Source of the DNA: an uncultured virus (IMG/VR IMGVR_UViG_3300046675_000098)
Taxonomy: Duplodnaviria; Heunggongvirae; Uroviricota; Caudoviricetes
IMG/VR virus record: IMGVR_UViG_3300046675_000098
Direction: 5' to 3' (one strand)
Length of the DNA: 57,369 nt
Part shown: positions 893 through 53,045 of the stretch, piece by piece
Position numbering within the stretch: the stretch's first letter is position 1
Layout: each line of letters opens with the position of its first letter
Notes under the pieces: generated by a model
Told to the model about the DNA's origin: nothing
The model's input: the letters and a program-made list of their open reading frames with translations, nothing else
The model's database searches: none
Program-made: the position numbers and the translations under genes

Positions 893-1874
893 GGTTCCGT
901 ATCTTCCAACATGTGTTGCGGTACTTGCAACCACGGCACGTGGACACCTGCTCGTCGGTGGCCCACGCTGGCCGTGGTGGAGGGCGCAGCGTTTCGAGCG
1001 CCTTGGTCACCAGGTGAGCACCTTCCAAGGCCCGCTCCACCAGACGGTCGTTGAGCTTGACCCGGAACTCCTTGACGTCCTGGTTGGGCTTCCACTCGTA
1101 GAGGAAGATCATCTCCGTGGGCACCGGTACCTCAGCCACCCCGAGCGAGGCCATGTACAGGTACAGCGCGCCCTGGCGCACGTGCACAGGGAAGGGCCGC
1201 TGGATGTCCATCCAGATCTTGTCCAGCGTCTCGTTGTTGAGGTAACGCTCGTACAACTCGGGCGCGTCGAAGCGGAGGCTGTTGATCCCGATGGACTTCA
1301 CCTCCAGCAGACGGAAGGGCTCGCTGTCATCGAACCAGAGCCCACCGTCAGCGTGACCCCCGAGATGGAGGTGCGGTGCGGTGAGTGGTACCTCCTTGTA
1401 CCGAAGGAACTCAACAACAGCACCGCAGTAGAAGCACTCCTTCGGTGCGCGGTCCCACCAACGGCACTGACACTGACGGCACTCGAACACGCCGTAGAGC
1501 ACACCCATCTCCCACAACCACGTCTGCCACTTGCGGTGGATGGTGTGGCCCTCGATCCACACGTTCTCCAACCGGAAGCTGGGGCTGGCGCTCTTGGTGC
1601 CGTCGATGGGGATACCAGCCAGCCGGTAGTAGTCAGCCCGGTAGCACCAGTCCGGCTTGCACATCTCCGAGGGGTGCAACAAAGTCTGGTCCCGCTCTTC
1701 GTCGGGGATCACAGCCTGTCTGAGCACGTGTTTCTTGAGGTCGTCCAGGATGATGTTGCGGTTGCCCACCGACAGGTCCCGCATCTCCCGGAGCACCCGG
1801 TGAGAGATGCTACGTTCAACCGGACGACCCTCGCTCATGTCCATTCCATCTGTCGAGGACCCACGCCGCGGCAC
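810..1874 (-). CDS. Cas4-like PD-(D/E)XK exonuclease
   Basis: HPSEMC, GHADG...LLEVKS, QxxLY motifs, C-terminal CxxCxxxxxC (4Fe-4S-type cysteines) and an internal Zn-ribbon. Confidence 0.85.
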   Translation of the reverse strand: MPRRGSSTDGMDMSEGRPVERSISHRVLREMRDLSVGNRNIILDDLKKHVLRQAVIPDEERDQTLLHPSEMCKPDWCYRADYYRLAGIPIDGTKSASPSFRLENVWIEGHTIHRKWQTWLWEMGVLYGVFECRQCQCRWWDRAPKECFYCGAVVEFLRYKEVPLTAPHLHLGGHADGGLWFDDSEPFRLLEVKSIGINSLRFDAPELYERYLNNETLDKIWMDIQRPFPVHVRQGALYLYMASLGVAEVPVPTEMIFLYEWKPNQDVKEFRVKLNDRLVERALEGAHLVTKALETLRPPPRPAWATDEQVSTCRGCKYRNTCWKIRNHDKHEAAQTPVIKADAKLRRRALARKA

Positions 1875-1880
1875 GGAAGC

Positions 1881-2195
1881 TCATGCAATGCGAGGGTCGT
1901 CATCGAAGTAGTCCTCCTCGCGCAGCACCACGTACCGGCGTGTTCCACCCTTCTCCTTGAACTCGATGCAGAAGACGGGTGTCCGGTTGTCGATGAGAGC
2001 ATTGTGCTCTAGCTGACGCAACTCGGCCAGCTTGAGGACGAAGGACTTGTGGGAGGTCCACTTGGCTTCGATCAATCTTCCCAGGGAGCGCACGTCGTGT
2101 TTCCGTACCCATCCGTTGCCCGATCCAGGCGAGCGGGTACCGCCTGTGAGGTTGGCGAGCCGTGACTCCTGCTTCTCCCACGGCTTACGAGGCAA
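1881..2195 (-). CDS. Holliday junction resolvase, PD-(D/E)XK type
   Basis: E...SGNG...KHDV...IEAK motif pattern, next to RecA. Confidence 0.75.
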   Translation of the reverse strand: MPRKPWEKQESRLANLTGGTRSPGSGNGWVRKHDVRSLGRLIEAKWTSHKSFVLKLAELRQLEHNALIDNRTPVFCIEFKEKGGTRRYVVLREEDYFDDDPRIA

Positions 2196-3255
2196 CGCGC
2201 TTCAGCGTACGCTTCTTGGCTGGCATGGGGCGCACGTTGTCAGTGTCAGTGCGCCCGAGCAGCCGGTGTCGTACCTCACCATCGAGCGCTGACACCAGGG
2301 CAGGCTCGTTCTCGATCGCAGCGAACAGAGCCTCCTTGCCCCGCCAGGAGCGACCGGCGTACTTGTAGACGCTGGAACGCTGCTCAATGATGTCCAGGTC
2401 CAAGGCGATGTTGCCGACCTGCTTGCCGAGGTCGTAGCTCCCGGCCCGATGGTTGGGGGTGTCCTCCCAGTAGAAGTCCATGGCTGCGGAGCGCTGCGGG
2501 GGACTCGTCTTGTTCTTGCTGATGCGGACCTTGAACCCGAGCCCCGTGCGGTGCTTGTCGGTGCCCAGCCACTCGTCGCGACGCACCTCCATGCGGACCA
2601 TGTAGAAGAACTCCTTGGCCCGACCGTACGGCGTGACTCGGTTGTCGCCGTAGGTGTAGCCCACCTTCTCCCGCCACTGGCTGATGATGATCCCGAGGCA
2701 GGCCCGGTCTGGTGTGGTGAGGCTGCGGCGCTGGGCGCTGCTCGACTTCCGCATGAACTTGCCCGTGATGCGGGCACCGAGGGCCACCTGGACCTGGTCC
2801 ATGGCCTTCTCGTCCTCCTCAGTGGGAGTGAGGCTGGAGAGACTGTCGATGACGACAGCGTCAACCAGGCGGTCATCGATCATCTCGATGGCGATTTGGA
2901 AGGCGTCCTCCATGACCTGGGTGGAGGCCACGATCATGCGGTTCATGTCAACGCCGCAGGTGATGGCCCACGGCACGACGAAGGGCTCGCTCGCTATCCA
3001 CAGGCAGTGGAAATCCCTGTTGATAACTTGGTTGGCGGCGATGGTCTTGAGAGCGATTACCGATTTACCGTTGGATGGTTCACCCTCGATGGAGCACCAG
3101 CAGTTCATGGGAAAGCCGCCGCCCAGCGCCAGGTCCAGGGACAACGACCCTGTCGTGATGCGTGGGATCTCGTGGCCGATCATGTCAGAGCCGAGCAGGA
3201 GGGTGCCCTCACCCAGGTTCTTGTTCACGCGTGCTACCACGCTGGTGATGGACAT
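2185..3255 (-). CDS. recA: RecA-like recombinase
   Basis: TGSLSLDLALGGG, Walker A GEPSNGKS, Walker B VVIDSL, KNKT motif. Confidence 0.93.
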   Translation of the reverse strand: MSITSVVARVNKNLGEGTLLLGSDMIGHEIPRITTGSLSLDLALGGGFPMNCWCSIEGEPSNGKSVIALKTIAANQVINRDFHCLWIASEPFVVPWAITCGVDMNRMIVASTQVMEDAFQIAIEMIDDRLVDAVVIDSLSSLTPTEEDEKAMDQVQVALGARITGKFMRKSSSAQRRSLTTPDRACLGIIISQWREKVGYTYGDNRVTPYGRAKEFFYMVRMEVRRDEWLGTDKHRTGLGFKVRISKNKTSPPQRSAAMDFYWEDTPNHRAGSYDLGKQVGNIALDLDIIEQRSSVYKYAGRSWRGKEALFAAIENEPALVSALDGEVRHRLLGRTDTDNVRPMPAKKRTLKRVAS

Positions 3256-3290
3256 GTACGGAGACTAGACCACCTACAAGTGATCGTGGG

Positions 3291-3752
3291 TCATGCGCTG
3301 TGAGCGAACTCGCCTTGCTCCCACAGGCCGTTCCACCCGCAGTCGGTGCACATGGGTGCCGCCTCGCGCTGACCCTCGAAGCGACGGAACAGCACACCGT
3401 CACACCGAGGGCAGTGCTGCGCTTCCTTCTGTCCCTTACCGCCGCGCCAGAACGCAGCGAGCGTCAGGAAGTTGTCCGGGTTGATGGCACCCCTCGGGAT
3501 GCGAGATGTGTCAACAGGAGGGGGTGGCACCGGAGCCCACGGATCACGGTGGCCCGGGGTCCCGATACCGAGCGCTGCCAGTTGCTCCTGGGTGTTGTCG
3601 TAGGCAGGCGGCGCGCCCTGCTGTTGATAGTACGCCTGGGGCGGGGGCTGAGCCTGCGGGTAGTAGTACGGGCTGCCCTGAGCCGGGGGCTGCGGTGCCC
3701 GCCCAGCCAGGCCACCGAAGTGACGCTGGTACCAACTCGCACTGTCACTCAT
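3291..3752 (-). CDS. hypothetical protein with Gln/Pro-rich N-terminus and C-terminal Zn ribbon
   Basis: CPRC...CTDCG. Confidence 0.7.
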   Translation of the reverse strand: MSDSASWYQRHFGGLAGRAPQPPAQGSPYYYPQAQPPPQAYYQQQGAPPAYDNTQEQLAALGIGTPGHRDPWAPVPPPPVDTSRIPRGAINPDNFLTLAAFWRGGKGQKEAQHCPRCDGVLFRRFEGQREAAPMCTDCGWNGLWEQGEFAHSA

Positions 3753-4050
3753 ACCGCATCCACCCCTCCAACATCGTGATCACAGCCATAGCGTAGGTGG
3801 TCAACCACGCAGTGCGCTCATCGTGACCATCCACGAGCGCCAACACCTGGGCAGCATCCTCGGCTGCGCTCGTGAGCAGAGTCAACAGAGCCTCGTCGGA
3901 GGCCAGCCGCTCCATACGGGCCTCGGAGTCCAGCTTCTCAGCCGTCCGTACCTCCGGGGACGCATCGATGAGCCCGAACATGTGACACAGCAGGTCAGAC
4001 GACACCGGCCATGCCATGTCCAGGAGGAACCGGCGCCGCAGCGCGGTCAT
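3745..4050 (-). CDS. hypothetical protein
   Basis: ATG at 4050 coupled to the polymerase stop (TGATG); MTALRRRFLLD... Confidence 0.6.
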   Translation of the reverse strand: MTALRRRFLLDMAWPVSSDLLCHMFGLIDASPEVRTAEKLDSEARMERLASDEALLTLLTSAAEDAAQVLALVDGHDERTAWLTTYAMAVITMLEGWMRYE

Positions 4051-6065
4051 CACTTCGCTTCGTTCCAGGCTCTCGCTATTCCGCACGACACCACCAGGGG
4101 TACATCGATGATCGGCCGGTTCCCCCGCATGATACCGCCCATCGCCTGCACCATGATGTCCCGGCATTCCTCAGCCTTGTCCTCAGGAGCCACGGCAATA
4201 AGCTCGTCGTGAACAGTCAACAGCAACTTGAACGGCTGGCCAGGCAGGGCTTGGAAGGCCCGGTCCACCCGGAGCATGGCGATCTTCATGATCTCTGCCG
4301 CAGTACCCTGGATGCGATGGTTCCATGCCTGGCGCTCAGCCCGGGTCCTCAACTCGTTGTCGCTGAAGGCGTACAGATCAGGAAGCCGCCGCCGTCGCCC
4401 CAGTAGAGTGGTGACGTAGGGAGGGGTTCTCTTGGGGTCCTTGCGGTCCCCCCTCCGGTCGGCTTCCAAGAGAACCGCCCTGCGCCACGGCTTGATGGTG
4501 GCGAAGCGGGCGTAGTACTTGTCCATGAACACCCGAGCTACGTCCTCCGGGATGCCTGCGGCCATGAGTCGGCCCAGGCCAGCGCCGTAGGAGATGGCGA
4601 AGTTGATGGTCTTGCCCGCTGTGTTGCGCTCCTCGTGACTCAACTTGCTGGCTGGCTTGCCGAGGATGAACGCTGCCGTCTCAGCGTGGATGTCGAGCCC
4701 TTCGAGGAAGATGCCCATCATCACCGGGTCCTGGAGGAAGTGCGCGAAGACCCGTAGCTCGATCTGGTCGTAGTCACACACCACCAGGAGGCAACCTGGC
4801 GGGGCGATGAACATCTCACGAATGTTCGCCCCGCTGCCCTCCCGAGGGATGTTCTGGAGGTTTGGCTCCGTGGAACTCAGACGACCCGTGACCGTGCGGT
4901 GCTGCGTCAACTGAGTGTGGATGTACGTGATCCCGTCCGTCGCAGTGGCAGCCCTCGCCTTGAGCCCGATGATGTAGGTGGAGTGGAGCTTCTTGAGTTC
5001 AGCGTGATGCAGGAAGCAGTCGCACAGGTCGTTGTTGGGCGCGTACTCCTCCATCGTGTACTGATCGAGTACCGGAGTGTGCGTCTTCGGCGTGTACTTG
5101 AGCGGCTTGAGCCCCTGCCCCTTCGGCTTGTCACCGAACAACAGGTCCCGCTTCTTGTTGGTGTTGGTCAACTCGAAGGGCTCACCCGTGATGGTCCAGG
5201 CCCGCTCCTCCCACTGCTCGATCTCCTCGGCCAGGTACTTCTCGACCTGGTCCAGCTTTGTTAGATCAACAGCGATGCCGTTGGTCTGCGTACGCATCAA
5301 CGTGGGGTAGAGATCCATCTCCAGCTTGAGCAGGGACAGGAGATCTTCGCGCTCCATCCGAGCCCGGGTCTCCTTCCAGTACAGCCAGAGCAGGTAGGCA
5401 TCCTTGGCCAGGTACCGAGCCACGTCATCGATGGGCTCCGTCTGGATCGTCTTGCCGAGCTTGGGGTAGTACGTCTTGCGCCGCACCTTGTCCGTGATGC
5501 GGAGCCAGTCGAGGATGACCTCCTTCAACTCGTAGTTGCGCCGGTTCTCATCACAGATGTGCGTCATGATCATCGGGTCCTCGTAGGGACCAGTTGGTAC
5601 CGCACCGCCGTAGTACTTGGCGATGGTCATGAGATCGAACCGTGCGTTCCAGGCCACCTTGATCTGGTCCCCGAACAACAGCGGCTCCAGTTCCTTGAAG
5701 ACGACGGCCGGGTCTAGCTGTGGTGGTGGAGGCGCGTAGACAGGCGGCACCTTGCGGACGACCTTGGCCTGAGAGAGCTTGCCACTCAGGAGGACGCGCC
5801 GGTTCTCCTCAGGCGGGAGCACCTTCTCCTCGGTGCCTGGCGTGAGCATGCGCCCTCGCTGGTGGCCCATTGGTACCAAGTACACCTGCCCGTAGCTGGC
5901 GAGGCCGATCCAGGTGACCCAGTTCGAGAAGACATCGAGCCCGTTCGTCTCGACGTCAAAGGAGAAGGCGGGCTGCTCACCCAGCATGGAGACGGCGTAC
6001 TTCAGTTCACTACGGGTGGTGATCAGATGCGGGAGTATCACTGACACTGACACATCGTGCCACAA
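4050..6065 (-). CDS. polA: DNA polymerase family A (3'-5' exonuclease plus polymerase, no 5'-3' exonuclease)
   Basis: ExoI FDVET, TGRLSSTEPNLQNIP, motif A DYDQIELR, motif B KTINFAISYG, motif C VHDEL; true start may be GTG near 6047. Confidence 0.95.
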   Translation of the reverse strand: MWHDVSVSVILPHLITTRSELKYAVSMLGEQPAFSFDVETNGLDVFSNWVTWIGLASYGQVYLVPMGHQRGRMLTPGTEEKVLPPEENRRVLLSGKLSQAKVVRKVPPVYAPPPPQLDPAVVFKELEPLLFGDQIKVAWNARFDLMTIAKYYGGAVPTGPYEDPMIMTHICDENRRNYELKEVILDWLRITDKVRRKTYYPKLGKTIQTEPIDDVARYLAKDAYLLWLYWKETRARMEREDLLSLLKLEMDLYPTLMRTQTNGIAVDLTKLDQVEKYLAEEIEQWEERAWTITGEPFELTNTNKKRDLLFGDKPKGQGLKPLKYTPKTHTPVLDQYTMEEYAPNNDLCDCFLHHAELKKLHSTYIIGLKARAATATDGITYIHTQLTQHRTVTGRLSSTEPNLQNIPREGSGANIREMFIAPPGCLLVVCDYDQIELRVFAHFLQDPVMMGIFLEGLDIHAETAAFILGKPASKLSHEERNTAGKTINFAISYGAGLGRLMAAGIPEDVARVFMDKYYARFATIKPWRRAVLLEADRRGDRKDPKRTPPYVTTLLGRRRRLPDLYAFSDNELRTRAERQAWNHRIQGTAAEIMKIAMLRVDRAFQALPGQPFKLLLTVHDELIAVAPEDKAEECRDIMVQAMGGIMRGNRPIIDVPLVVSCGIARAWNEAK

Positions 6066-11393: not shown

Positions 11394-12971
11394 CTACGCC
11401 GCCTCCAGGAACGACCGTAGGCTCCCCAGTGTCAGTGTCAGTGCACCCTTGGCATCGATGTGCTGGCCGTCGATCCAGGCCTCGCTCACCATGCGCTTCT
11501 GAGTCAACATCTCTAGCTGCCGTTCCTCGATGGTGTTCTTGCCCAACATGGTGAGCACGTTGACCTGGCCCCACTGGCTGGACGTGCGGTCGATACGGGC
11601 CACACGCTGGGCAAACGCACCCGCCGACCACGGCAGATCATAGGAGATGAGGTAGTTCACCTGGGGCAGGTCGATGCCGTACTGACCGGCGTCCGACGAC
11701 AGCAGAACCCTCGTCTGGTGCTGGAACCGGTCCAGGCTCTCGGCGCGCTGACGGGCGCTCATGTCCCCGATCAGGAAGGTGCTGTGGATGCCGTGGTGAG
11801 CCAACGCCTTGGCAATCATCCGCAGCATGGGCTTGAAGTAGGCGAACAGCACCACCCGGTTGCTCCGGTCCTCCGTCAGGATCTCCTCGATCAACTCGAC
11901 CGCCGTGTCCAGCTTAGTTGAGTCAACTACTCCGTCCAACCACCCCTCGGCCTTGAGCCATGATGCGTACTTGGAACCTGTAGAAGTGTCGGTGTCATCG
12001 AAGTCGTCAGCACTCATCGCCAGGAGGCCCGGGTGATCACAGAGGAGACGCATGCAGGTCAGGCGGCTCATGATCTCGCCCTTACCCTTGCCGCCAGCCT
12101 CTTTCTCGGCGCGACCATACGCGGCCAGTACGTTCCACCCGCCCATGCCACCGGCAGCGATAATGGCGTCGATGACGTCCAGGATGTCGGTGCGGATGAA
12201 GTCGTAGAGGTCCATGACCTGCTTCGACAACTGAACCGGTACCTCCATGCTGTTGATCCGTGGGAGGTACGCCTCGACATCCTTGCGGGAACGCCGGAAC
12301 ATGACCGGCTCCATTGCGCGCTGGAGTACATCCATGTTGCGGTACTTGGTTGGCCGTCCGAAGTGGTCGCGCACGATGAAGGTGCGATCGAACTTGGGGA
12401 ACGAGGGAAGCACGGTGCGGTCAACGAACTCCATGATCGAGAACAGTTCCTCGGGACGGTTCTCGATCGGCTGGCCCGTCAGTGCGAAGCGGTAGGGACT
12501 GTGCTGCGACCACGCCTTGAGGACCCGGGACCGCTTGGCCCGGAATGACTTGATCATCGTGGCCTCGTCAGCGATGACGAACTGGGGCACCGGTATCCAG
12601 TGCCGGATCATCTCCAGGTCGTTGCGGAGGACGTCGTAGTTAGCCACGTTGTACCGGAATCGAAAGCTGTTCTGGTACTGAAAGCGCCGCTGAGCACGGT
12701 CCCCGTCGATGACCTGCACGTTGGGTCCCACGTGCTTTCGTATCTCACCCATCCACTGGAACTTGATGGAGTTGGGGCAGAGGACGAACCCGGACGTGAC
12801 CTCTCCCTGCGCTGCCAGTAGTTCAACTGCGGCCAGGGCCGTAACGGTCTTGCCTGCGCCCATCGTGAGGGCAAGGAGTTGGTTGCCCCTCTCGACCATG
12901 CGTGCGAGGGCTTCCGTCTGATAAGGGCGCGGCTCAAGGTTCAGAGACCATAGAGTCGAGTCCGCTTCCAT
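11394..12971 (-). CDS. SNF2/DEAD-like superfamily 2 helicase
   Basis: PYQ, MGAGKT, DEAT, LTGQP, GIDL, QRVARIDR; start MEADS at 12971. Confidence 0.9.
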   Translation of the reverse strand: MEADSTLWSLNLEPRPYQTEALARMVERGNQLLALTMGAGKTVTALAAVELLAAQGEVTSGFVLCPNSIKFQWMGEIRKHVGPNVQVIDGDRAQRRFQYQNSFRFRYNVANYDVLRNDLEMIRHWIPVPQFVIADEATMIKSFRAKRSRVLKAWSQHSPYRFALTGQPIENRPEELFSIMEFVDRTVLPSFPKFDRTFIVRDHFGRPTKYRNMDVLQRAMEPVMFRRSRKDVEAYLPRINSMEVPVQLSKQVMDLYDFIRTDILDVIDAIIAAGGMGGWNVLAAYGRAEKEAGGKGKGEIMSRLTCMRLLCDHPGLLAMSADDFDDTDTSTGSKYASWLKAEGWLDGVVDSTKLDTAVELIEEILTEDRSNRVVLFAYFKPMLRMIAKALAHHGIHSTFLIGDMSARQRAESLDRFQHQTRVLLSSDAGQYGIDLPQVNYLISYDLPWSAGAFAQRVARIDRTSSQWGQVNVLTMLGKNTIEERQLEMLTQKRMVSEAWIDGQHIDAKGALTLTLGSLRSFLEAA

Positions 12972-16415: not shown

Positions 16416-16934
16416 CTAGCTCACCTGGTCGTCTTCGCCAGTGATGTCGTCAGTGTCAGTGGCGTCCCCAGGCGAACGGCCCTGGAAGCGACGGTTATCC
16501 ACAACGATGTCCCCAGACATACGCACAGCCTGTCCCGCCCGCCGTCCTTCCATGGCCCGCTCTGCTGAGCGAAGGTACGAGCCGCGACGACGGAAGTACG
16601 CGTCCCAGCACGCGTTGTCCGGCCCGAGGTTGAGCGATGGGCTCTCGGAGCGGAAGAACATGAACGACGCCTTGATCACCTCCTCGCTGTGGGTGCCGAG
16701 GATGAACGTGATGTTCTTGTTCATGCGTGGTCGGTTGCTCCATCGTGGGACCGACAGCGGGATGGTGTCGCACTCCCGCCAGAACGTCTCTGCGATGCGA
16801 GTGACCAGACCAGAGTGTTGGGGAGCCCCGGGCTCACGCTTGGGCTTGGTCGAGTCCTCTCCCAGAGCGGGCTCGCTCCATGCACCTCGATCCCACGGGT
16901 CACCCTGTTGTCGCTTGGAGGGCTTCTTGGGCAC
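16416..16934 (-). CDS. putative replication initiator or loader partner
   Basis: first gene of the replication operon, directly upstream of the DnaC-like gene; TACCCT-N6-GTG leaderless start; function inferred from position only. Confidence 0.5.
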   Translation of the reverse strand: MPKKPSKRQQGDPWDRGAWSEPALGEDSTKPKREPGAPQHSGLVTRIAETFWRECDTIPLSVPRWSNRPRMNKNITFILGTHSEEVIKASFMFFRSESPSLNLGPDNACWDAYFRRRGSYLRSAERAMEGRRAGQAVRMSGDIVVDNRRFQGRSPGDATDTDDITGEDDQVS

Positions 16935-17470: not shown

Positions 17471-17491
17471 GTAGGCCACTGACACTGACAG

Positions 17492-19928: not shown

Positions 19929-19965
19929 AGCGTACCGCGTTCTGGGACGGCCGTCAGTGTCAGTG
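19929..19965 (-). promoter_or_regulatory. promoter whose -35 overlaps a 13-mer motif copy
   Basis: CTGACG(19957-19952)-N17-TACGCT(19934-19929); motif at 19953-19965. Confidence 0.55.
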
Positions 19966-20050: not shown

Positions 20051-20935
20051 CTACTGCGCGATGAAGGCCAGCGCATCAGCCTCGGGGATCATGCGGGTGA
20101 CCACGGCGTGGTTGAAGTGGACGACCACCAACACACCCTGGCCATCACCGTTGGTAAGGGCCACCGTCTCCGGGGGCCGCAGCTTGGACTCGATGACCTC
20201 GATCAACTCCTTCTTGCTCGCACCCTTGGAGTCGATGCCCTGCGAGCGAGCAACGGCGCCAAGCTCAGCCATCGTCATCTTCGCCAGTTCGGCAGGGGTG
20301 TAGACCACCACCTCGTCAGCCTCGGGCTCACCCTCCTCAAGTTCCTCGACCGCCTCGATGATCTCGTCCACCGTGGCTGACGCCGCGGCCTTCTTTGCGG
20401 CCTTCTTGACGGGTCCCGGCGCCTTCGCCGCCGCCGCTTTCTTGGTGGCCGATTTGGCAGGCACCGGCTCCGGCTCCGGCTCGACTTCGCCTTCGTCCTC
20501 ACCCTCCAGCGTGATCTTGTACATCTGACCGTTCAACTGGAACACCGGGGTGTCTCCGTCGATGGCCGTCTCCATGAAACGCTGAAGGTCATCGTCGGGG
20601 TTGTCGTCGTCCAGCAGCACGAGCAGCGTTGCATCTTCGCTCTCAGCCACGCGCTCCTGGATGCGCTCCAGCATCGAGCCGAAGACGTCATCGGTGGCGA
20701 TGGTCTCCTGAGCGCCGTCCACCGTGGTACCAGTGGCGGTGTAGATCTCGAACCAGATCTCGTTGGCCGTCAGCCACTTGACGATGGCGTTGTCCGTGGC
20801 CGTGGGCTCGTCCTTGCCCTCCATGATCGTCCAGAAGTCCACGTCCTCCTGGGTGGCTTTGTCCCGCAGATCCTTGAGGGCTGCGGTGATCTCCTTCACT
20901 GGGCCGGTACCGTTCCCGGCTATCGCGTACAACAT
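20051..20935 (-). CDS. acidic protein with Lys/Ala-rich histone-like linker and HeH/Rho-N-like domain
   Basis: PAKSATKKAAAAKAPGPVKKAAKKA; LAKMTMAELGAVARSQGID..GASKKELIEVI. Confidence 0.7.
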   Translation of the reverse strand: MLYAIAGNGTGPVKEITAALKDLRDKATQEDVDFWTIMEGKDEPTATDNAIVKWLTANEIWFEIYTATGTTVDGAQETIATDDVFGSMLERIQERVAESEDATLLVLLDDDNPDDDLQRFMETAIDGDTPVFQLNGQMYKITLEGEDEGEVEPEPEPVPAKSATKKAAAAKAPGPVKKAAKKAAASATVDEIIEAVEELEEGEPEADEVVVYTPAELAKMTMAELGAVARSQGIDSKGASKKELIEVIESKLRPPETVALTNGDGQGVLVVVHFNHAVVTRMIPEADALAFIAQ

Positions 20936-22534: not shown

Positions 22535-22980
22535 AGTGGTGCTCCCTCGAACGTCGCAAGGGCGCTGAGTCCCACTGACACTGACGCGCCCACCGACGTG
22601 ATCTGAGCGACCTGAGCGGAGGCTATGTGTCTCCCCTGGAGCGCCGTGGCTGCATGCCACCAGATGGCCGGGAAGACGTACAGGTCCCCGGTGAACTGTT
22701 GCTGGAAGGCATAGCGTTGCCAGGCGGTACTATCGGTGAGCAGACCCCCGGCGCCCGGGTTGTACGTCTGCCGGTAGGCACCCTTGTTGTCGTAGGTGAC
22801 GAAGGAGCCCACCACCGTGGCGTTGGGAGCGCCCAGCAGGTGGCAGCACTGGAACTGGAACTCCCAGACCTCGCCGTTATGCACAGGGATGCCGAAGTGC
22901 TGCCAGTCGGTCTCCTTGGCCCCGTCGAAGCCGCCGTCAGCGGTGAGGCCACAGACCACGGTCATGTCTACATAGGGCAT
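22531..22980 (-). CDS. minor tail protein (CBM-like)
   Basis: TGATG coupling; beta-rich sequence. Confidence 0.6.
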   Translation of the reverse strand: MPYVDMTVVCGLTADGGFDGAKETDWQHFGIPVHNGEVWEFQFQCCHLLGAPNATVVGSFVTYDNKGAYRQTYNPGAGGLLTDSTAWQRYAFQQQFTGDLYVFPAIWWHAATALQGRHIASAQVAQITSVGASVSVGLSALATFEGAPL

Positions 22981-30262: not shown

Positions 30263-31806
30263 CAGACAAGACCTCCTGAGCCCGTGACGGTGATGTGCCC
30301 CGCCGCAGCGTCAGACACAGGGATGCGCGTCGGCCCCGCCTGAATGTCCTGCACGGCGGCGGTACCGATGGGGTTACCGGGCACGCTGTCATCGAGTGGT
30401 ACCAACGTGGTCAACTCGATCCAGTCCACACCAGACACGTTGAGCGCCGCGTGGTACACCTCACCCCGGCTCACCAGAGCCCCGAAGTCGATCTCGGGGT
30501 TGTCGAAGGAGAAGACGTTGATGATGGCCTGTGTCACGGCGTTCACCACCGTCAACTGGCCGTACTGCGGGAGCACATGCACCGTCAGGGCCACCCGCAC
30601 GTAGGTGTAGATGTAGTCCGTGGTACTAAATGGGTGCATCTCCAGGGTCACACCCACCAGCGAGCGATCCTGGAGATACTGGGACACCGCCAGCATCAGG
30701 TCAGCGTTCGGGTAGCCACCACCTACGGGAGCTACGTACACCTTGATCTGGGAGTAGAACTCCCCCGTCGCCACAGCCTTGCCCACACCCGGCACCTGGA
30801 AGCACAGATCGGCGTAGTCCTGGAGCGTGATGGCGCGGTCCCGGAGCTTGGAGGCCCGCGGGATGCCGTGACGCATCGAGTCGATGCTCTCGTTGTCGGC
30901 GCCGTTCTGGAAGGCCGTGAAGTTGTTCACTGACACTGACGGAACAGGCGGCGTGATGAGCGTGATGGCCCCCGGTGCCACGTTGCCTCGGGCTCCCTGG
31001 CCGTAGCGGTACGTCACATGCAACTCAGCGCCGACCGGAGGGATGCGCCCCGCCACGTTGTCACCGAAGACGATGTGCACGAAGCCCCGGTCATCCGCAT
31101 ACGTTGTGTAAACACTGGCGTCAGGGTCAGTGTCAGTGAGGTTGTCCACGTAGGTCCACGTCTGGAGCAACGGGATCGGCTCCGTGCCCAGCGGCTCCAG
31201 TTGATCCGTCTCCCGCACCCGCAACACCATGGAGCGGTGGATGACACCCTGGTAGGCCATCACGTACTCCTGGAGCGGAGCACCGTTGGACAGGGCCAGT
31301 AGTTCGTCACTGACGGTGCGCCCCTCCTGAGCACCGGCCGTCGCCGTCAGCACAGGAGGTGTGGAACTGCTGTTCAGGTAGGCGTCACCGATCGTCTCGA
31401 AGCTCACCGCCACCGTGGTCTGACCCACCGCCGTCTGCACCACCGTGCCACCCGGGACAGTCACCGCGCCAGCGGTGGAGGCAGAGTCCAGGGTGAACGT
31501 GACGATGCCCGTAGCCGCCTGCTGGCTGATGGGGACGTACCCCAGCATGTCAGCAATACCTAGTACCGATTGGCGCCGGACAGCAGTAGCCAAGAACGGC
31601 TCAGCGGCGACACGGTCGATGTAGTAGTTGAGCACGTCGCCTACGTAGGCCCACAACTCCAAGAGCATCGTGCCGAAGTCGGCGGGCTCCCCCACCGTCT
31701 TCCACTCGGGGAGCATGCCTCCTGCCGCCGACACTAGGAACATCCGGATCGACTCATAGTCCCGGTTCGTGTAGTCCAACTCCACCGACGTGGTGCTGTT
31801 GCTCAT
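30262..31806 (-). CDS. baseplate J-like wedge protein
   Basis: DYTNRDYES, YYIDRVA.E, FGD...GRIP, RAITLQDY. Confidence 0.9.
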   Translation of the reverse strand: MSNSTTSVELDYTNRDYESIRMFLVSAAGGMLPEWKTVGEPADFGTMLLELWAYVGDVLNYYIDRVAAEPFLATAVRRQSVLGIADMLGYVPISQQAATGIVTFTLDSASTAGAVTVPGGTVVQTAVGQTTVAVSFETIGDAYLNSSSTPPVLTATAGAQEGRTVSDELLALSNGAPLQEYVMAYQGVIHRSMVLRVRETDQLEPLGTEPIPLLQTWTYVDNLTDTDPDASVYTTYADDRGFVHIVFGDNVAGRIPPVGAELHVTYRYGQGARGNVAPGAITLITPPVPSVSVNNFTAFQNGADNESIDSMRHGIPRASKLRDRAITLQDYADLCFQVPGVGKAVATGEFYSQIKVYVAPVGGGYPNADLMLAVSQYLQDRSLVGVTLEMHPFSTTDYIYTYVRVALTVHVLPQYGQLTVVNAVTQAIINVFSFDNPEIDFGALVSRGEVYHAALNVSGVDWIELTTLVPLDDSVPGNPIGTAAVQDIQAGPTRIPVSDAAAGHITVTGSGGLV

Positions 31807-48248: not shown

Positions 48249-48257
48249 GACTCACTC

Positions 48258-48482
48258 CTAAGGCTTGACCCAGATCATCCCCACAGTGGGGGCGACGGGT
48301 TCGGTTGCTGACACAACAACACCGCCAGCCGGACCAGGAGGACCAGCCGGACCTTCGGGACCGACAGGACCCGTCTCACCTTCGATGACGGGGGAGACGA
48401 TGACCGGCGCTCCTGCGCCCCCAGGAACGATCACCTGCGGCGCACTGGTGCCCTGCACGTTGATGCGGACGGGGCTAGGCAT
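48258..48482 (-). CDS. short collagen-like structural protein
   Basis: G-X-Y run GETGPVGPEGPAGPPGPAG. Confidence 0.65.
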   Translation of the reverse strand: MPSPVRINVQGTSAPQVIVPGGAGAPVIVSPVIEGETGPVGPEGPAGPPGPAGGVVVSATEPVAPTVGMIWVKP

Positions 48483-49143
48483 AGGGGATCACGTGCCAGT
48501 TGCTCGGCGGGTAGAGATCCGGCTGCGTCACCTGCGTGTCCACCGTGGCCTTGCCCGTCAGCCAGGTACGGGTGGTCCACGCGTCCACCAGGAGCGGGTC
48601 CTCCCACTGCTTGGTCTGGAGATCCCAGAGGTAGTGCCCGGGCCAGATCGTGCCCCCAGTGAGCGTGACCATGGTCCCCGGCCCCAGGTTGCTGAAGTCG
48701 TCCAGGAACTCGGTAGTGATGGTGAAGGTCATCACGTACCGGTACCCGGGCCACGTGGGTGGCCACCAGTAACCGTAGTAGTACCAACCCTCGGCGCGCA
48801 CCTGAGACGTCCACTGGGTCATCACCCAGGTGAGCCCGAGAGTGTCGGTGGGCTTCACATCGGTCCAGCAGACGCCGTCGAAGTAGAACTGGAACTCAGC
48901 GGTGTCCCCGGCTACCCAGTGCAGGTCGTACTCATCCGGGGTCTGGCTGGTCGAGCCAGTGCTGGCAGCGTTTGTACCTGTTCCCGAACCATTACTACCA
49001 CTGACACTGACACCGGGCAGGAACGTGCTCGGGGGCACAAAGTCAGTGGCGTAGGGGCTGATCTCAGGACCCTCTCCCCAGATCTGCACGCTCTGGCTGA
49101 TCGGGGAGGGCGTGTCATTGAAGGTCTGCTGCTGGCTCGGCAC
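48475..49143 (-). CDS. structural protein (BppU/Ig-like)
   Basis: DL...GDT..F, WDLQ, T.L.G...V...VT. Confidence 0.6.
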   Translation of the reverse strand: MPSQQQTFNDTPSPISQSVQIWGEGPEISPYATDFVPPSTFLPGVSVSGSNGSGTGTNAASTGSTSQTPDEYDLHWVAGDTAEFQFYFDGVCWTDVKPTDTLGLTWVMTQWTSQVRAEGWYYYGYWWPPTWPGYRYVMTFTITTEFLDDFSNLGPGTMVTLTGGTIWPGHYLWDLQTKQWEDPLLVDAWTTRTWLTGKATVDTQVTQPDLYPPSNWHVIPYA

Positions 49144-49151
49144 AGGTCACC

Positions 49152-50690: not shown

Positions 50691-50691
50691 G

Positions 50692-51255
50692 TCAGAGGAG
50701 AGCTTCCAGGTGAGGCAACAGCGTGGCCCGGTTCTTCCCGGCTACCTCAGCGTCGATCAGCGCCTGCACCTGATCGGGGTTGTTCTCAGCGAACTCGATG
50801 ACCTCGGGCACCGTGTGGGCGCCAGGGTCGTAGGCCACCTCCACGTCAGCCTGCTCACTGGGCGGCAGCGCTTCAGCCTGAACCTGGGCCTCAGGCTGCA
50901 CCATCCGGGGCGTACCCGAGAACGGCTTGACCGTGGTGACGTAGGTACCGTTGGCCAGCGGTGGCGTCCCCGCACCAGACACGGTGCAGGTGATGGTCTG
51001 GTTGGTACCAGCCGCACCTGCCGGGAAGGTGACGACCGTGGATGCCCCCGTCGTCGGGTTGCACACGCCCGAAGCACTGGCCGTCCAGGCGTAGTCGGCC
51101 GGGTTCGTGGTACCACGAGGCCCCGTGGTGGTCACGGTGTACTGCAAGCCGTTGTTGGCGTTCTGCTGGGCCTTGGCGCCCGCAGGCGAGGACTGAACGA
51201 CTCCCGGAGAGTCGGTGTACATCGTGTTGGGACCGTGGACGGTCACCATGCTCAT
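50692..51255 (-). CDS. Ig-like protein with small C-terminal helical domain
   Basis: YDP..HTV.EV...E..GKNR.TLL. Confidence 0.6.
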   Translation of the reverse strand: MSMVTVHGPNTMYTDSPGVVQSSPAGAKAQQNANNGLQYTVTTTGPRGTTNPADYAWTASASGVCNPTTGASTVVTFPAGAAGTNQTITCTVSGAGTPPLANGTYVTTVKPFSGTPRMVQPEAQVQAEALPPSEQADVEVAYDPGAHTVPEVIEFAENNPDQVQALIDAEVAGKNRATLLPHLEALL

Positions 51256-51259
51256 TGGG

Positions 51260-51664
51260 CTACCTCCGCGCCATGCGCTCGTTGTAGGGGAAGGGCTGCT
51301 CCATCAGGAAGTCGAGGCGCGCCAGTTCGTAGGCGACAGCCTTCGGCACCTTGTAGCGCACACCAGCCTTGAAGGCCATGTGCACGATCGGCACACCGAG
51401 GGTCATGTCCTCGATGTCGGTGTGCGTGCGGATCACCCAGACCGGAGAGTCTTCCTCCTGCTGCTCCTGGAGAGCCATCGGAAGCTCTTGGACCTCGTCC
51501 ACCACATGCGGCGCACCGAAGAGCCCCGCCATCGTTGACACACCAGGGGTGACCTCGCCACCCTCTTCCGAGACCTCCACCGGCCGCATCTCACTGGCCG
51601 GAAGGTCCGGGTCGTGGATGTCAGTGTCAGTGGCTCCGGGAGCACGTCGTTGTTGGGCCATCAC
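51260..51664 (-). CDS. conserved head-associated hypothetical protein
   Basis: directly downstream of capsid; F.AG..YKVP..VA..L. Confidence 0.65.
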   Translation of the reverse strand: MMAQQRRAPGATDTDIHDPDLPASEMRPVEVSEEGGEVTPGVSTMAGLFGAPHVVDEVQELPMALQEQQEEDSPVWVIRTHTDIEDMTLGVPIVHMAFKAGVRYKVPKAVAYELARLDFLMEQPFPYNERMARR

Positions 51665-51683
51665 ATCTCCTGTTCCGTGGAAA

Positions 51684-51705
51684 GAGGGGGCCGAGTGGCC
51701 CCCTC
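51684..51705 (-). terminator. terminator after major capsid gene
   Basis: GAGGGGGCC-GAGT-GGCCCCCTC followed by TTT on the minus strand. Confidence 0.7.
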
Positions 51706-51737
51706 CGTCCTGTCACTTGACGGCGGGCGCCGCCAGA

Positions 51738-53045
51738 TCAGTTGGTCTGGATGCGGACGACGGCGGAATCGGTGATCGTGCCGAAGCCCCAGATCCCGTA
51801 CCAGGCCAGTGCATGCTCACGGCCGAAGTCGAGCACGCCGCCGTCCCGAAGCTCCACGGGGAGGCTGATGGCATGACCGAAGGCGTTGTCCCCGATCATC
51901 AACCCCTCGAAGATGTTGTCGGGGTTGGTGGTGGTACCACCGCCAGGCCAGTACTCGCCCCATCCGGGCATCACGTTGGCGCCGGGACCGACTGACTCGT
52001 AGCCACCGGTCTGCGGCTGGGTGATGTCCGTGGTGGACGACACTGTCGTGTCCGACGCGACGTCGGTACGCCAGTAGGCAGCCGCCACCGAGGGATCGAG
52101 CGCCAACGTGGGCGGCATCTGGCCAGCAGCCAGCGGAACACCGATCTGCGTGGTCTCGATGAAGACCACATCGTTCAGGCGCCCGATCTCGCCCAGCATG
52201 AAGTTGCCCGGGGCCGCGTACTTCGTGACCTCGATGAACTCCGGGGTGTCACGGAGACGACGGCTCTGGTGCGGGTGCACCAACATCACGTAGGTCTCCC
52301 CGAGGCGGGGGATGTTCTTCGACGCCATCATCTCGACGGCGTCCTTCACCGTCGCCATGGTGAGGTAGAAGTACGGCGCACCCGTAGCGGCCACTGACAC
52401 TGACGTGCCTACGGTGCCGGGGTTGTAGATGCCGTAGCCGACGTTGATGGCCGTGGTCGAGGTGTCGTAGCCGTACACCGCCGACGACGAGCGCTGGAGT
52501 GCCGTGCGGGCCTGCGTGTCGATGTACAGCGCCATGTTGCGCCCGAGGAGCCGCGAGGCCGAGGCCATCACGTCATCGAAGCTGGCGTTGAGCAGCAGTT
52601 CCGTCACCGAGACGGCAAAGCCCTGCTCAGCCACTTTTATTTGGTACTGCTGCGCGCTGAGAGCGTAGGTCCGCATGCGGACACCCTCGACCAGGGGACC
52701 GGCAGGGATCGGCAGGTTGTTGTAACGCATGAAGTTGACGGTCAGTCCAGGCATGATGCCCAGTTCCGTCTTCTTGACCGCGAACTGCTCGAATCTCAGG
52801 ACCGGCATGGCCTGAAAGAGGATCTCCTTCGACCAGATGACCTGGATCGCTGGACCCATCATGGACGAGGCCGTGGTGGGGGCGACGGAGTAGCCGCCAC
52901 TCCCATCAGGACCAGCAGCCATGTTGTAGCCAGCGGCGTTGCCGTAGACGCTGTACTGGGCGCCGCCAGCGACTTGGTTGGTACCGGTGACCGCGGACCC
53001 GGTGGGGAACGGGCTACCGATCGGGGCTGGTGTTGCGTTGGCCAT
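51738..53045 (-). CDS. major capsid protein (N4-gp56 family-like)
   Basis: WSKEILFQAMP.LRFEQFA, HPHQ..LR, GEIG....V.FIET, DFGR...AWY. Confidence 0.9.
   Translation of the reverse strand: MANATPAPIGSPFPTGSAVTGTNQVAGGAQYSVYGNAAGYNMAAGPDGSGGYSVAPTTASSMMGPAIQVIWSKEILFQAMPVLRFEQFAVKKTELGIMPGLTVNFMRYNNLPIPAGPLVEGVRMRTYALSAQQYQIKVAEQGFAVSVTELLLNASFDDVMASASRLLGRNMALYIDTQARTALQRSSSAVYGYDTSTTAINVGYGIYNPGTVGTSVSVAATGAPYFYLTMATVKDAVEMMASKNIPRLGETYVMLVHPHQSRRLRDTPEFIEVTKYAAPGNFMLGEIGRLNDVVFIETTQIGVPLAAGQMPPTLALDPSVAAAYWRTDVASDTTVSSTTDITQPQTGGYESVGPGANVMPGWGEYWPGGGTTTNPDNIFEGLMIGDNAFGHAISLPVELRDGGVLDFGREHALAWYGIWGFGTITDSAVVRIQTN

What the first reader, a model, noticed from the sequence alone, without database searches (positions are those of the whole stretch)
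1465..52404. Dispersed exact 13-mer CACTGACACTGAC written into genes on both strands
Seen: 14 exact copies by manual scan. Forward copies start at 1465, 6039, 17477, 22573, 30928, 48999 and 52392; reverse copies at 2239, 11431, 16449, 19953, 23103, 31126 and 51620. A given 13-mer is expected well under 0.01 times in 57 kb. The motif is a hexamer direct repeat (CACTGA x2 + C). Twelve copies lie in or at the start of CDSs and are read in different frames: TDTD (RecA, baseplate J), VSVS (capsid, PolA start), LTLTL (SNF2) and CQC (exonuclease). Protein selection therefore cannot explain it. Copies often sit as oppositely oriented neighbours (1465/2239, 22573/23103, 30928/31126). I found none between 31.1 and 49.0 kb. 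Established: cluster A mycobacteriophage stoperators are also 13 bp but are mostly intergenic and oriented with transcription; matS, SlmA and Noc sites are intragenic DNA-organising sites. Inference: this is a DNA-level binding site for a phage or host protein acting in genome organisation, segregation, self-marking/protection or repression. It may be an undescribed system.
Basis: partly seen in the sequence, partly recalled or inferred. Interest (0 to 1): 0.88.

Follow-up and report, generated by a model that had tools for sequence, protein, structure and literature searches.

The report
Phage-private dispersed 13-base DNA word
An uncultured soil phage of actinobacteria keeps dozens of letter-perfect copies of one 13-base DNA word, even inside genes, most likely as docking sites for a protein of its own that is still unidentified.

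Summary
All 14 exact copies of CACTGACACTGAC sit at the stated places (7+/7-; 0.02 expected).

The window is part of a ~119-kb myovirus genome. I pieced it together from two overlapping public contigs that are 99.99-100% identical to the window; it carries 37 exact copies.

- **Selection acts on the DNA.** All 11 TDTD peptides use the rare ACT codon, and a synonymous-codon shuffle removes the coding copies.
- **Sites arise by point substitution**, not insertion.
- **Sister phages carry a graded variant**, CAYTGACAYTGAC, with lineage-specific C or T. Relatives with 60-64% portal identity have none.
- **No host enrichment found.** The most any of 401 actinobacterial genomes holds is 3 copies.
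- **Placement is biased.** Genome-wide the word is about tenfold denser between genes than inside them, and 41 of 60 orientable sites point with transcription.
- **No -10 box follows it**, and no extra folding surrounds it.

Best reading: a dispersed site for a sequence-specific protein encoded by the phage. It resembles the stoperators of cluster A mycobacteriophages but is not shown to belong to that family. No repressor homologue or lysogeny gene was found, and orientation is only 70% uniform.

Nick sites, a host sigma-4/WhiA-type reader and a DNA-modification mark remain open. The binder is unknown.

The parts
1465..1477 (+). exact CACTGACACTGAC; antisense, mid-gene in the Cas4-like exonuclease ORF 810-1874 (read as QCQ)
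2239..2251 (-). exact copy; sense, at 94% of the RecA ORF 2185-3255 (TDTD); G007 has CATTGACATTGAC at the matching place
6039..6051 (+). exact copy; antisense, within the first 27 nt of the longest PolA ORF 4050-6065
11431..11443 (-). exact copy; sense, at 97% of the SNF2 ORF 11394-13037 (LTLT); G007 has a 12-of-13 near-site here
16449..16461 (-). exact copy; sense, at 91% of ORF 16416-16934 (TDTD)
17477..17489 (+). exact copy; intergenic, 2 nt after the stop of the D12 methyltransferase gene 17492-18391, antisense; similarity to a variant-strain contig (run X24) breaks exactly at its edge
19953..19965 (-). exact copy; intergenic, sense; 29 nt after a terminator-like hairpin and 68 nt before the start of ORF 19303-19884
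22573..22585 (+). exact copy; antisense, at 5% of ORF 21257-22660 (VSVS)
23103..23115 (-). exact copy; sense, at 97% of the 1766-aa ORF 22980-28280 (TDTD)
30928..30940 (+). exact copy; antisense, mid baseplate-J ORF 30262-31806 (SVSV)
31126..31138 (-). exact copy; sense, mid baseplate-J ORF (TDTD); the same-length stretch in G007 differs by substitutions only
48999..49011 (+). exact copy; antisense, at 20% of ORF 48475-49143 (VSVS)
51620..51632 (-). exact copy; sense, at 8% of ORF 51260-51664, just downstream of the capsid gene
52392..52404 (+). exact copy; antisense, mid major-capsid ORF 51738-53045 (SVSV)
20051..20935 (-). candidate reader only, not shown to bind: 294-aa protein with a lysine/alanine-rich tract and a weak SAP/Rho_N-like helix-extended-helix stretch; homologue in motif-bearing G007 (46%), none in motif-less G009/G010

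Best explanation
The word is a cis-acting recognition site, about 15 bp long in full (S-CAYTGACAYTGAC-R, i.e. 2 1/3 tandem CAYTGA hexamers). It is kept by selection on the DNA itself and read by a sequence-specific protein that this phage clade encodes.

At the two Y positions this phage has C/C, closer relatives mostly T/C, and the most distant motif-bearing relatives mostly T/T.

The sites sit mainly between genes and at gene ends, and mostly point with transcription. So the likeliest job is coupled to transcription. A bound protein would act as a polar roadblock or insulator at the ends of transcription units, and as a brake on stray or antisense transcription. Close head-to-head pairs would act as two-way barriers. 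That is how the stoperators of cluster A mycobacteriophages work.

Shown: the sites, their selection at DNA level, their privacy to the phage, their lineage-specific variants, and their placement and orientation bias.

Inferred: that a phage protein binds them, and what binding does.
For: 1. **Enrichment.** 14 copies in the window against 0.02 expected; 37 in the composite 119,242-bp genome.
2. **Selection on the DNA.** 11 of 11 TDTD, 3 of 3 SVSV and 2 of 2 QCQ peptides in the proteome are spelled with the word, although ACT is only 10.5% of Thr codons. In 200 synonymous-codon shuffles the count falls from 37 to a mean of 16.8 (maximum 19), which is essentially the non-coding copies.
3. **Origin by substitution.** At composite-genome position 57532 (just past the window's end), G007 has GTCGGTGTCGGTG (ACC GAC ACC GAC), the same length. 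Flanks share nothing beyond S at -1 (A in 0 of 67) and R at +13 (64 of 67).
4. **Variation between lineages.**
   - G007 (118 kb, portal 79%): 16 CATTGACACTGAC, 10 CATTGACATTGAC, 2 CC-type, 2 CT-type.
   - G015 (83%): 5 TC and 1 CC.
   - G013 (70%): 7 TT, 1 TC, 1 CT.
   - G009 and G010 (60-64%): none; G011 has a single 1-mismatch match.
   - Several orthologous places keep a site but with the lineage's own letters: 2239, and composite positions 62240, 84667, 75489, 106264 and 110601.
5. **Private to the phage.** Of 401 genomes of one actinobacterial class, 76 have any copy and none has more than 3. The phage has 37 in 0.12 Mb.
6. **Placement.** Intergenic / gene-terminal / internal = 16/10/11, against 9.7/19.5/70.8% of the genome (P = 4e-12). 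G007 gives 13/9/8 (P = 1e-8). Several sites lie 1-3 nt after a stop codon.
7. **Orientation.** 41 sense to 19 antisense among 60 orientable sites in the two genomes (P = 0.006).
8. **Close pairs.** All six pairs up to 65 bp apart, at distinct loci in four lineages, are head-to-head in the same sense (+ then -), with spacers of 4-50 nt. A plain hairpin would not care about that order.
9. **Match to published stoperators.** They are 13-14 bp, asymmetric, 20-30 per genome, mainly intergenic, oriented with transcription, and their motif co-varies with the repressor (passages of PMC6550527 and PMC3029335).
Against: - **No binder identified.** Pfam, PHROGs and NCBIfam scans of about 165 ORFs found no L5-gp71-like repressor. 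They gave only generic candidates: ribbon-helix-helix, a weak winged helix, zinc ribbons, basic proteins.
- **No lysogeny genes.** No integrase or partition gene was found, so there is no prophage to silence.
- **Orientation is only about 70% uniform**, and 11 of 37 sites are deep inside genes.
- **The all-or-none exactness looks more like an enzyme site than a typical operator set.** The composite genome has 37 perfect copies, 1 independent one-mismatch copy, and 5 two-mismatch copies, which is about chance.
- **Placement at gene ends could simply be where a 13-mer costs least.**
- **Gene positions come from my own GC3-based ORF picking**, so distances to start codons are approximate.
- **No expression or binding data exist.** No RNA run is listed, and only assembled contigs were available.
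Confidence: 0.45

Rival explanations
1. Recognition site of a phage nicking or cutting enzyme. Virion DNA would carry localized single-strand interruptions at the word, as in T5, phiKMV-like phages and Pseudomonas phage tf.
For: Exact, asymmetric, phage-private word with almost no near-variants. Sister phages use a slightly different word at partly the same places. The tf paper describes the same traits for its nick sites: 14 sites, only 17 sequences within one substitution, TACTGTGAC in tf against TACTATGAC in relatives, and proposed co-evolution of nickase and sites (passages of PMC3517423).
Against: In T5, phiKMV-like phages and tf, all sites lie on one strand. Here there are 15 + and 22 -. 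Head-to-head pairs 17-63 bp apart would amount to staggered double-strand breaks. No nuclease or ligase candidate tied to the motif was found: the PHROG 'endonuclease VII' hit of 20051-20935 falls on a SAP/HeH-like stretch with no catalytic motif. Nicks could not be tested because only contigs, not raw reads, were on offer.
Confidence: 0.17
2. Docking site for a host factor that reads -35-type DNA: sigma-A region 4 in RNA polymerase, or WhiA, possibly steered by the phage's two WhiB-like proteins. The word would act as a polymerase landing pad or trap rather than a promoter.
For: The word is two tandem -35-like hexamers, YTGACA-YTGACR; the T/T variant reads TTGACA-TTGACR. The composite genome encodes two WhiB-family proteins. 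WhiB proteins bind sigma-A region 4. WhiA reads GACAC with a sigma-4-like domain, on either strand and at variable spacing (passages of PMC10243135). GACAC lies at the centre of the C/C and T/C variants.
Against: A host reader should have sites in host genomes, yet none of the 401 genomes searched holds more than 3 copies. That argument is weak if the host's own sites are short and degenerate. The T/T variant lacks GACAC. The C/T preference differs by phage lineage, which fits a phage reader better. No -10 element follows at any fixed distance. One WhiB gene also occurs in the motif-less relatives G009 and G010.
Confidence: 0.1
3. Target of a sequence-specific DNA modification, a self-mark. 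The writer could be the TGT/DpdA-like enzyme or another phage enzyme, and the mark would be read by a phage or host system.
For: The composite genome encodes a 452-aa protein matching PHROG 887, 'queuine tRNA-ribosyltransferase' (E 5e-27). From recall, not from a call: phage DpdA enzymes of this family put 7-deazaguanines into DNA at set motifs. Exactness and privacy suit an enzyme site.
Against: The TGT-like gene is also present in the motif-less G009 and G010. It has no Pfam, NCBIfam or PDB sequence match. The D12 methyltransferase next to site 17477 is absent from G007. A modification target explains tolerance of sites, not why sites are created at a cost to coding.
Confidence: 0.08
4. Recombination sites or microhomologies at which gene cassettes are exchanged, inverted or moved between related phages.
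For: - The five-gene cassette 17492-19884 is bracketed by 17477(+) and 19953(-). It is mostly missing from G007, which has a pair enclosing about 290 bp at the same locus.
- A 71-aa gene outside the window is bracketed exactly by a pair.
- In G015, that gene and the methyltransferase lie side by side, separated by a pair.
- One variant-strain contig loses similarity exactly at 17477.
Against: Tested and not supported. Synteny with G007 is broken at 15 of 22 junctions that bear a site and at 93 of 145 that do not (Fisher P = 0.81). No recombinase family was found in any scan. Sites arise in place by substitution. Identical 13-mers would attract occasional recombination whatever their function.
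Confidence: 0.07
5. An RNA-level signal (CACUGACACUGAC) for processing, 3'-end formation or long-range pairing of sense and antisense copies.
For: Sense bias of 41:19. Sites sit right after stop codons. Orientation alternates in the window (P = 0.004), so many neighbours could pair within one long transcript.
Against: A third of the copies are antisense and equally exact. Windows around sites fold no better than class-matched controls: -33.0 against -33.9 kcal/mol, P = 0.2; in G007 they fold slightly worse. Alternation is weak genome-wide (P = 0.05). In the early region, six sense copies in a row have no partner. Close pairs have a fixed order, which a hairpin does not need.
Confidence: 0.04

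Closest known systems
Stoperators/operators of cluster A mycobacteriophages (L5 gp71, Bxb1 gp69; also reported for Streptomyces phage R4 relatives)
   Same: Both are 13-bp asymmetric words, at 24-34 copies per genome there and 37 here. Both are spread over the whole genome, enriched between genes and mostly oriented with transcription, with a consensus that differs between related phages (passages of PMC6550527, PMC3029335 and PMC10276819). Read in reverse, the T/T variant shares TGTCAA with the L5 consensus GGTGGMTGTCAAG. That is only six letters and may be chance.
   Different: No gp71-like repressor, integrase or partition gene was found, so the phage looks lytic. Orientation is about 70% uniform, not near-uniform. 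21 of 37 copies overlap ORFs. In this phage the copies are letter-perfect, whereas published stoperator lists allow up to two deviations. The word is a tandem hexamer. No copy overlaps a recognisable early promoter; in the early region five copies lie roughly 15-80 nt upstream of one (read by eye). Binding is untested.
Localized single-strand interruption (nick) sites of T5, phiKMV-like phages and Pseudomonas phage tf
   Same: Both are short, exact, asymmetric, phage-private consensus words with very few near-variants. Sister phages carry a slightly different word at similar places, and the function is unknown even where nicks are proven (passages of PMC3517423).
   Different: Those sites are all on one strand and number 4-14 per genome. 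Here both strands carry sites, there are 37, and some form close opposed pairs. Nicks could not be tested.
Other dispersed phage regulatory words: P1 C1 operators, phiC31 conserved inverted repeats, cluster O 17-bp repeats, cluster K start-associated sequences (all recalled from memory, not checked in a call)
   Same: One short word repeated 15-35 times across a phage genome, read by or presumed to be read by one phage regulator.
   Different: As I recall them, those are tied to promoters or start codons, or are palindromes. This word is a direct hexamer repeat with no fixed distance to promoters or starts.
PafBC-dependent promoters of actinobacteria (-26 element tGTCgg-N10-tANNNT)
   Same: Read in reverse, the word contains TGTCAG, close to the -26 element, in an actinobacterial setting (passages of PMC8635444).
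   Different: The obligatory -10 box at fixed spacing is absent on both sides of the word. The word is far longer than the element.

Membership tests
Cluster A-type stoperator system | 13-14 bp site without dyad symmetry | tested here: met
   13-bp core, 15 bp with the S/R flanks; a direct hexamer repeat, not a palindrome
Cluster A-type stoperator system | 20-35 copies spread over the whole genome | tested here: met
   37 in the 119-kb composite genome, 30 in G007
Cluster A-type stoperator system | Sites mainly in short intergenic regions | tested here: inconclusive
   16 of 37 are intergenic against 9.7% of the sequence (P = 4e-12), but 21 of 37 overlap ORFs, 11 of them deep inside
Cluster A-type stoperator system | One orientation relative to transcription | tested here: not met
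   41 sense to 19 antisense: a bias (P = 0.006), not a rule
Cluster A-type stoperator system | Cognate HTH immunity repressor encoded by the phage and binding the sites | tested here: inconclusive
   No repressor family beyond a weak Arc-like/RHH and a weak winged helix turned up in the Pfam, PHROGs and NCBIfam scans. Binding is not testable with these tools.
Cluster A-type stoperator system | Temperate phage (integrase or partition genes) whose prophage is silenced | tested here: not met
   No integrase, recombinase or ParA family in any scan of about 165 ORFs. The nearest cultured relatives are the BRock group, for which no lysogeny genes are reported (abstract of PMC7453282).
Cluster A-type stoperator system | Motif differs between related phages in step with their divergence | tested here: met
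   C/C, T/C and T/T preferences by lineage
Phage nick (single-strand interruption) sites | All sites on one DNA strand | tested here: not met
   15 + and 22 -; the feature is taken from PMC3517423
Phage nick (single-strand interruption) sites | Physical nick in virion DNA at the consensus | not testable with these tools
   Only assembled contigs of public runs were available, no raw reads
Sigma-A promoter / PafBC promoter | -10 box TANNNT at fixed spacing from the upstream element | tested here: not met
   No informative column outside positions -1 to +13 in 67 aligned sites. TANNNT occurs 13 times in the 60 nt downstream of the sites, without a positional peak.
Host genome-wide signals (Chi, uptake sequences, matS/SlmA/Noc-type sites) | Strong over-representation in the host chromosome | tested here: not met
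   At most 3 copies per genome in the 401 actinobacterial genomes searched (76 have any; one of them, G283, is unpublished). The 15-mer scan of all species genomes gave scattered singles. The true host is unknown and may not have been sampled.
Miniature mobile element / insertion | Shared flanks, target duplications, presence/absence as an insertion | tested here: not met
   Flanks are unrelated. Where alignable, the homologous stretch in G007 has the same length and differs by substitutions.
WhiA-binding site | GACAC core | tested here: inconclusive
   Present in the C/C and T/C variants, absent from the T/T variant that dominates in G013. The core is taken from PMC10243135.

The most novel reading that the evidence does not exclude
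The word is not an operator at all. It would be a promoter-independent landing pad made of two tandem -35-type hexamers. With its WhiB-like proteins, the phage would use it to park or redistribute host RNA polymerase (sigma-A region 4), or a sigma-4-like reader, along its own DNA. The head-to-head pairs would serve as two-way barriers or loop anchors. That would be a genome-wide 'self' address system for a lytic actinophage, evolving by concerted change of all sites together with their reader.
Probability: 0.1. Interest if true: 0.82.

Novelty: new variant of a known kind. Interest (0 to 1): 0.62.

Why it matters
Dispersed private DNA words are one of the few ways a single protein can address a whole viral genome. 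The best-studied case, the stoperators, is known from temperate siphoviruses.

Here the same architecture appears in a large, apparently lytic, uncultured myovirus clade from soil. It shows three unusually clean signatures:
- rare codons recruited to write the word inside genes;
- all-or-none exactness;
- a stepwise change of the word, T/T to T/C to C/C, across sister lineages.

That makes it a natural experiment in the co-evolution of a reader and some 30-40 sites. It also gives a concrete handle for finding a new DNA-binding or DNA-processing protein, because the probe sequence is known exactly.

Tried and rejected
- **Promoter reading.** No -10 box or other conserved column outside the word. 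Manual check of 13 sense-oriented sites gave only 2 plausible -10 boxes.
- **PafBC -26 element.** Rejected for the same reason.
- **Hairpin or structure reading.** Folding energy around sites equals the controls.
- **Mobile-insert reading.** Substitutions, not insertions.
- **Recombination-boundary reading.** Fisher P = 0.81.
- **Flank sequences.** BLAST of three loose-end sequences of the variant strain against four phage genomes gave only 9-21-nt matches, best E 0.007.
- **Reads.** No RNA holder is listed. All 24 runs are kept as contigs, so nicks, read ends and expression could not be examined.
- **Binder hunt.**
  - Phyletic profiling over nine relatives left 22 proteins (14 of them non-structural) shared by motif-bearing lineages and missing from G009 and G010.
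  - There were no sigma-4, WhiA or gp71-like hits, even at E up to 0.5.
  - The Atlas look-up of the basic zinc protein gave no usable hit.
  - PDB sequence searches of two proteins were empty.
- **Repeat proteins.** No TALE-like tandem-repeat coding region in the window.
- **Literature.** A full-text search for the four 13-mers found only unrelated primer-like occurrences in 5 papers, so I found no description of this word in that library.
- **Earlier notes of this scan.** Nothing on this genome or on look-alike stretches.
- **Window-level nucleotide search of the cultured-phage collection.** No match.

Full report
**Observation.** Allowing two mismatches adds only five matches. Two are six-base self-overlaps of true sites and three are at chance level. 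The flanks of the 14 copies share nothing obvious.

**What the window is.**
- It is 63% G+C, and nearly all its genes lie on the minus strand.
- Pfam and PHROGs name a replication/recombination block: Cas4-like exonuclease, Holliday-junction resolvase, RecA, family-A polymerase, SNF2, Toprim primase, DnaB, an IstB-like loader and a D12 adenine methyltransferase. They also name a contractile-tail structural block: baseplate J, gp25, tube, sheath, capsid and SPP1-type portal.
- No nucleotide match exists among cultured phages. The nearest are the Streptomyces BRock-group myoviruses, with portal 59% and polymerase about 32% identical.
- The window's own assembly is not held, but two public viral contigs overlap it. 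Window 1-30707 equals G001 28121-58827 (99.993%). Window 40037-57369 equals G004 1-17333 (100%). G001 1-25309 equals G004 51087-76395 (100%).
- Joined, they give a circular map of 119,242 bp. That agrees with a complete 118-kb relative, G007.
- The rest of the genome encodes terminase, two WhiB-family proteins, several ribbon-helix-helix proteins, Ku, a second SNF2, a DUF3987 protein, SpoVS, an amidase and a TGT-like protein, plus one tRNA-Pro.
- WhiB and the BRock kinship point to an actinobacterial host. Public runs that hold the phage are soil and rhizosphere metagenomes.

**The word in the whole genome.**
- The composite genome has 37 exact copies (15 +, 22 -). The word is by far the most repeated 13-mer.
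- The base before it is G or C in 34 of 37 copies. The base after it is A or G in 36 of 37.
- Over 67 sites of two genomes, position -1 is never A and +13 is a purine in 64 of 67. No other flanking column carries information.
- The unit is therefore about 15 bp: 2 1/3 tandem CAYTGA hexamers. Equivalently it is two -35-like hexamers, YTGACA-YTGACR.
- The copies are all-or-none: 37 perfect, one independent one-mismatch copy, and five two-mismatch copies. Motif-less relatives show four and two two-mismatch copies by chance.

**Selection is on the DNA.**
- Every TDTD (11 of 11), SVSV (3 of 3) and QCQ (2 of 2) in the predicted proteome is spelled by the word, though ACT makes up only 10.5% of threonine codons.
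- Shuffling synonymous codons within genes 200 times reduces the count from 37 to a mean of 16.8 (maximum 19). That remainder is the copies outside or at the edge of genes.
- Where the homologous stretch of G007 can be aligned, it has the same length and differs by substitutions. At composite-genome position 57532, G007 has ACC GAC ACC GAC where this phage has ACT GAC ACT GAC. So sites are made in place by point changes, at a cost in codon choice. They are not inserted.

**Relatives.**
- The exact word occurs 16, 19, 5 and 26 times in G001, G002, G003 and G004, while the reversed control pattern occurs 0 times.
- A portal-protein search found 329 related viral stretches.
- Among those I examined, the word in the form CAYTGACAYTGAC is present down to 70% portal identity and absent below that.
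- Usage of the two Y positions is lineage-specific:

| Lineage | Portal identity | Variants counted |
|---|---|---|
| This phage (and G003) | 100% (G003 not known) | C/C only, 37 of 37 here |
| G015 | 83% | 5 T/C, 1 C/C |
| G007 | 79% | 16 T/C, 10 T/T, 2 C/C, 2 C/T |
| G013 | 70% | 7 T/T, 1 T/C, 1 C/T |

- G009 and G010 (60-64%) have none, G011 has only a single 1-mismatch match, and G009 and G010 show no comparable private 13-mer.
- At least six places are shared between this phage and G007, each with its lineage's own letters: the RecA 3' end, and composite positions 62240, 84667, 75489, 106264 and 110601. Most other sites are not shared.
- That is the pattern expected if all sites track one diverging reader.

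**Not a host signal.**
Almost all of the 80 rows shown were single hits in unrelated taxa, and no actinobacterial genome recurred.
- In 401 genomes sampled evenly from one actinobacterial class, 76 have any copy of CAYTGACAYTGAC and none has more than three. One of these genomes, G283, is unpublished.
- The phage has 37 copies in 0.12 Mb. The true host is unknown and may not be among those searched.

**Placement and direction.**
- Using my own GC3-based ORF calls, sites fall 16 intergenic, 10 in gene termini and 11 internal. The genome is 9.7%, 19.5% and 70.8% in those classes (P = 4e-12). G007 gives 13/9/8 (P = 1e-8).
- Several sites lie 1-3 nt after a stop codon, and two use the word's own TGA as the stop.
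- Orientation relative to the local genes is sense in 23 and antisense in 12 sites here, and 18 to 7 in G007. Together that is 41 to 19 (P = 0.006). Seven sites at converging gene ends were left out.
- In the early region outside the window, five sense copies sit between a stop codon and the next copy of a separate promoter-like motif, roughly 15-80 nt upstream of it (distances read by eye).
- Pairs up to 65 bp apart occur at six loci in four lineages. All are arranged + then -, with spacers of 4 to 50 nt.

**What it is not.**
- It is not a sigma-A promoter or a PafBC promoter. No -10 box lies at any fixed distance on either side (motif from PMC8635444).
- It is not a structural RNA or DNA element. 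Windows around sites fold no better than class-matched controls.
- It is not a mobile insert.
- It is not demonstrably a recombination boundary. Some accessory cassettes are neatly bracketed by pairs, and one variant-strain contig breaks exactly at 17477. But junctions with a site are no more often synteny breaks than junctions without one (15 of 22 against 93 of 145, P = 0.81).

**Most likely mechanism.** The features above match the published description of stoperators: 13-14 bp, asymmetric, 20-30 per genome, mostly intergenic, oriented with transcription, with a consensus that changes along with the repressor. These are also reported for Streptomyces phages of the R4 type.

I therefore favour a phage-encoded, sequence-specific DNA-binding protein whose bound sites act on transcribing polymerase. 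They would work as barriers at the ends of units, as two-way insulators where paired, and as suppressors of stray transcription inside long operons.

The steps from 'selected DNA word' to 'bound by a phage protein' to 'polar roadblock' are inference.

**Arguments against family membership.**
- No gp71-like repressor and no lysogeny gene were found.
- Direction is only about 70% uniform.
- The exactness looks more enzyme-like.

For that last reason a nickase reading is kept at 0.17. The tf paper describes very similar sequence statistics for proven nick sites. But all known nick systems are single-stranded in distribution, and nicks could not be examined here.

**Candidate readers.** Profiling against nine relatives leaves 22 proteins common to motif-bearing lineages and missing from G009 and G010; 14 of them are non-structural. 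Those with DNA-binding looks, all in composite-genome coordinates unless stated:
- a 169-aa basic four-cysteine protein (61023-61532);
- a 74-aa zinc ribbon (64101-64325);
- a Cys/His-rich 104-aa protein (69759-70073);
- a basic 137-aa protein (95734-96147);
- a 99-aa early protein flanked by two sites (80721-81020);
- in the window, 20051-20935, with a lysine/alanine-rich tract and a weak SAP/HeH-like stretch;
- two ribbon-helix-helix proteins;
- a weak winged-helix protein (87526-87915) that has a site 59 nt upstream of its start but is less widely conserved.

None is singled out by the evidence.

**Context within this scan.** Earlier notes describe other uncultured phages with private exact words of unknown reader. 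I did not test those notes. They suggest the phenomenon recurs, which neither raises nor lowers this case.

**Verdict.** The binder, and therefore the function, remains open.

Noticed in passing
window, 75 GGTACC sites (e.g. 1126, 21594, 51109, 51933); composite genome: The palindrome GGTACC, and especially TGGTACCA, is also over-represented at DNA level. The composite genome has 37 TGGTACCA against 10.5 (sd 1.6, maximum 17) in synonymous-codon shuffles, and 135 GGTACC against 85 (sd 6). Some copies lie in early promoter regions. This is a second, independent genome-wide word.
   Followed up: partly
window 11500 (+) and 56190 (-); 17 more copies outside the window (composite 77-108 kb): A promoter-like module recurs 19 times, mostly in the early region. 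It consists of GGGCCGAATGGCCC (a small hairpin), then TGAGTCAACA, then about 8-10 nt, then TAGACT, TACACT or TATACT, often just before a start codon.
   Followed up: partly
outside the window: L147:18188-19546 (-), composite 98224-99582: A 452-aa protein matches PHROG 887, 'queuine tRNA-ribosyltransferase' (E 5e-27), but has no Pfam, NCBIfam or PDB sequence match. Homologues exist in G007, G009 and G010. It may be a DpdA-like enzyme that puts 7-deazaguanine into phage DNA; that link is recalled, not tested.
   Followed up: partly
window 7998-10997 (+): This is the only long gene on the plus strand. It encodes a 999-aa protein with a glucose/sorbosone-dehydrogenase beta-propeller and PKD domains. 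It is conserved in G007 (66%) and absent from G009 and G010, and looks like a moron acquired from a host.
   Followed up: no
window 17368-17412: A 14-bp tandem repeat (CACTCACACAGGAA, 3.2 copies) and a terminator-like hairpin lie in the 540-bp gene-free gap just left of site 17477.
   Followed up: no
window 17477 and 19985 (run X24): A variant strain, about 97-98% identical over the covered parts, loses all similarity exactly at the left edge of site 17477 and again at 19985. It has no cover over 18311-19815. So the five-gene methyltransferase cassette is variable between strains.
   Followed up: partly
outside the window: composite 91113-97878: A block of Ku, an AAA_5 ATPase, a 664-aa unknown protein and a DUF3987 protein is shared by the motif-bearing lineages and absent from G009 and G010. 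From recall: phage Ku suggests linear DNA ends joined by host end-joining, as in mycobacteriophages Corndog and Omega.
   Followed up: no
loci L186, L188, L190, L202, L205, L208, L217, L222 (low-GC portal relatives): Distant relatives with 41-48% G+C carry 11-mers such as CCTTGAGTACC 10-20 times within about 20 kb around the portal gene. Probably a repetitive coding region; not examined.
   Followed up: no
window 22980-28280, 28277-29278, 29279-30262: The 1766-aa protein and the two following 330-aa proteins all match PHROG 2448 (unknown function). They look like a paralogous trio next to the baseplate genes.
   Followed up: no
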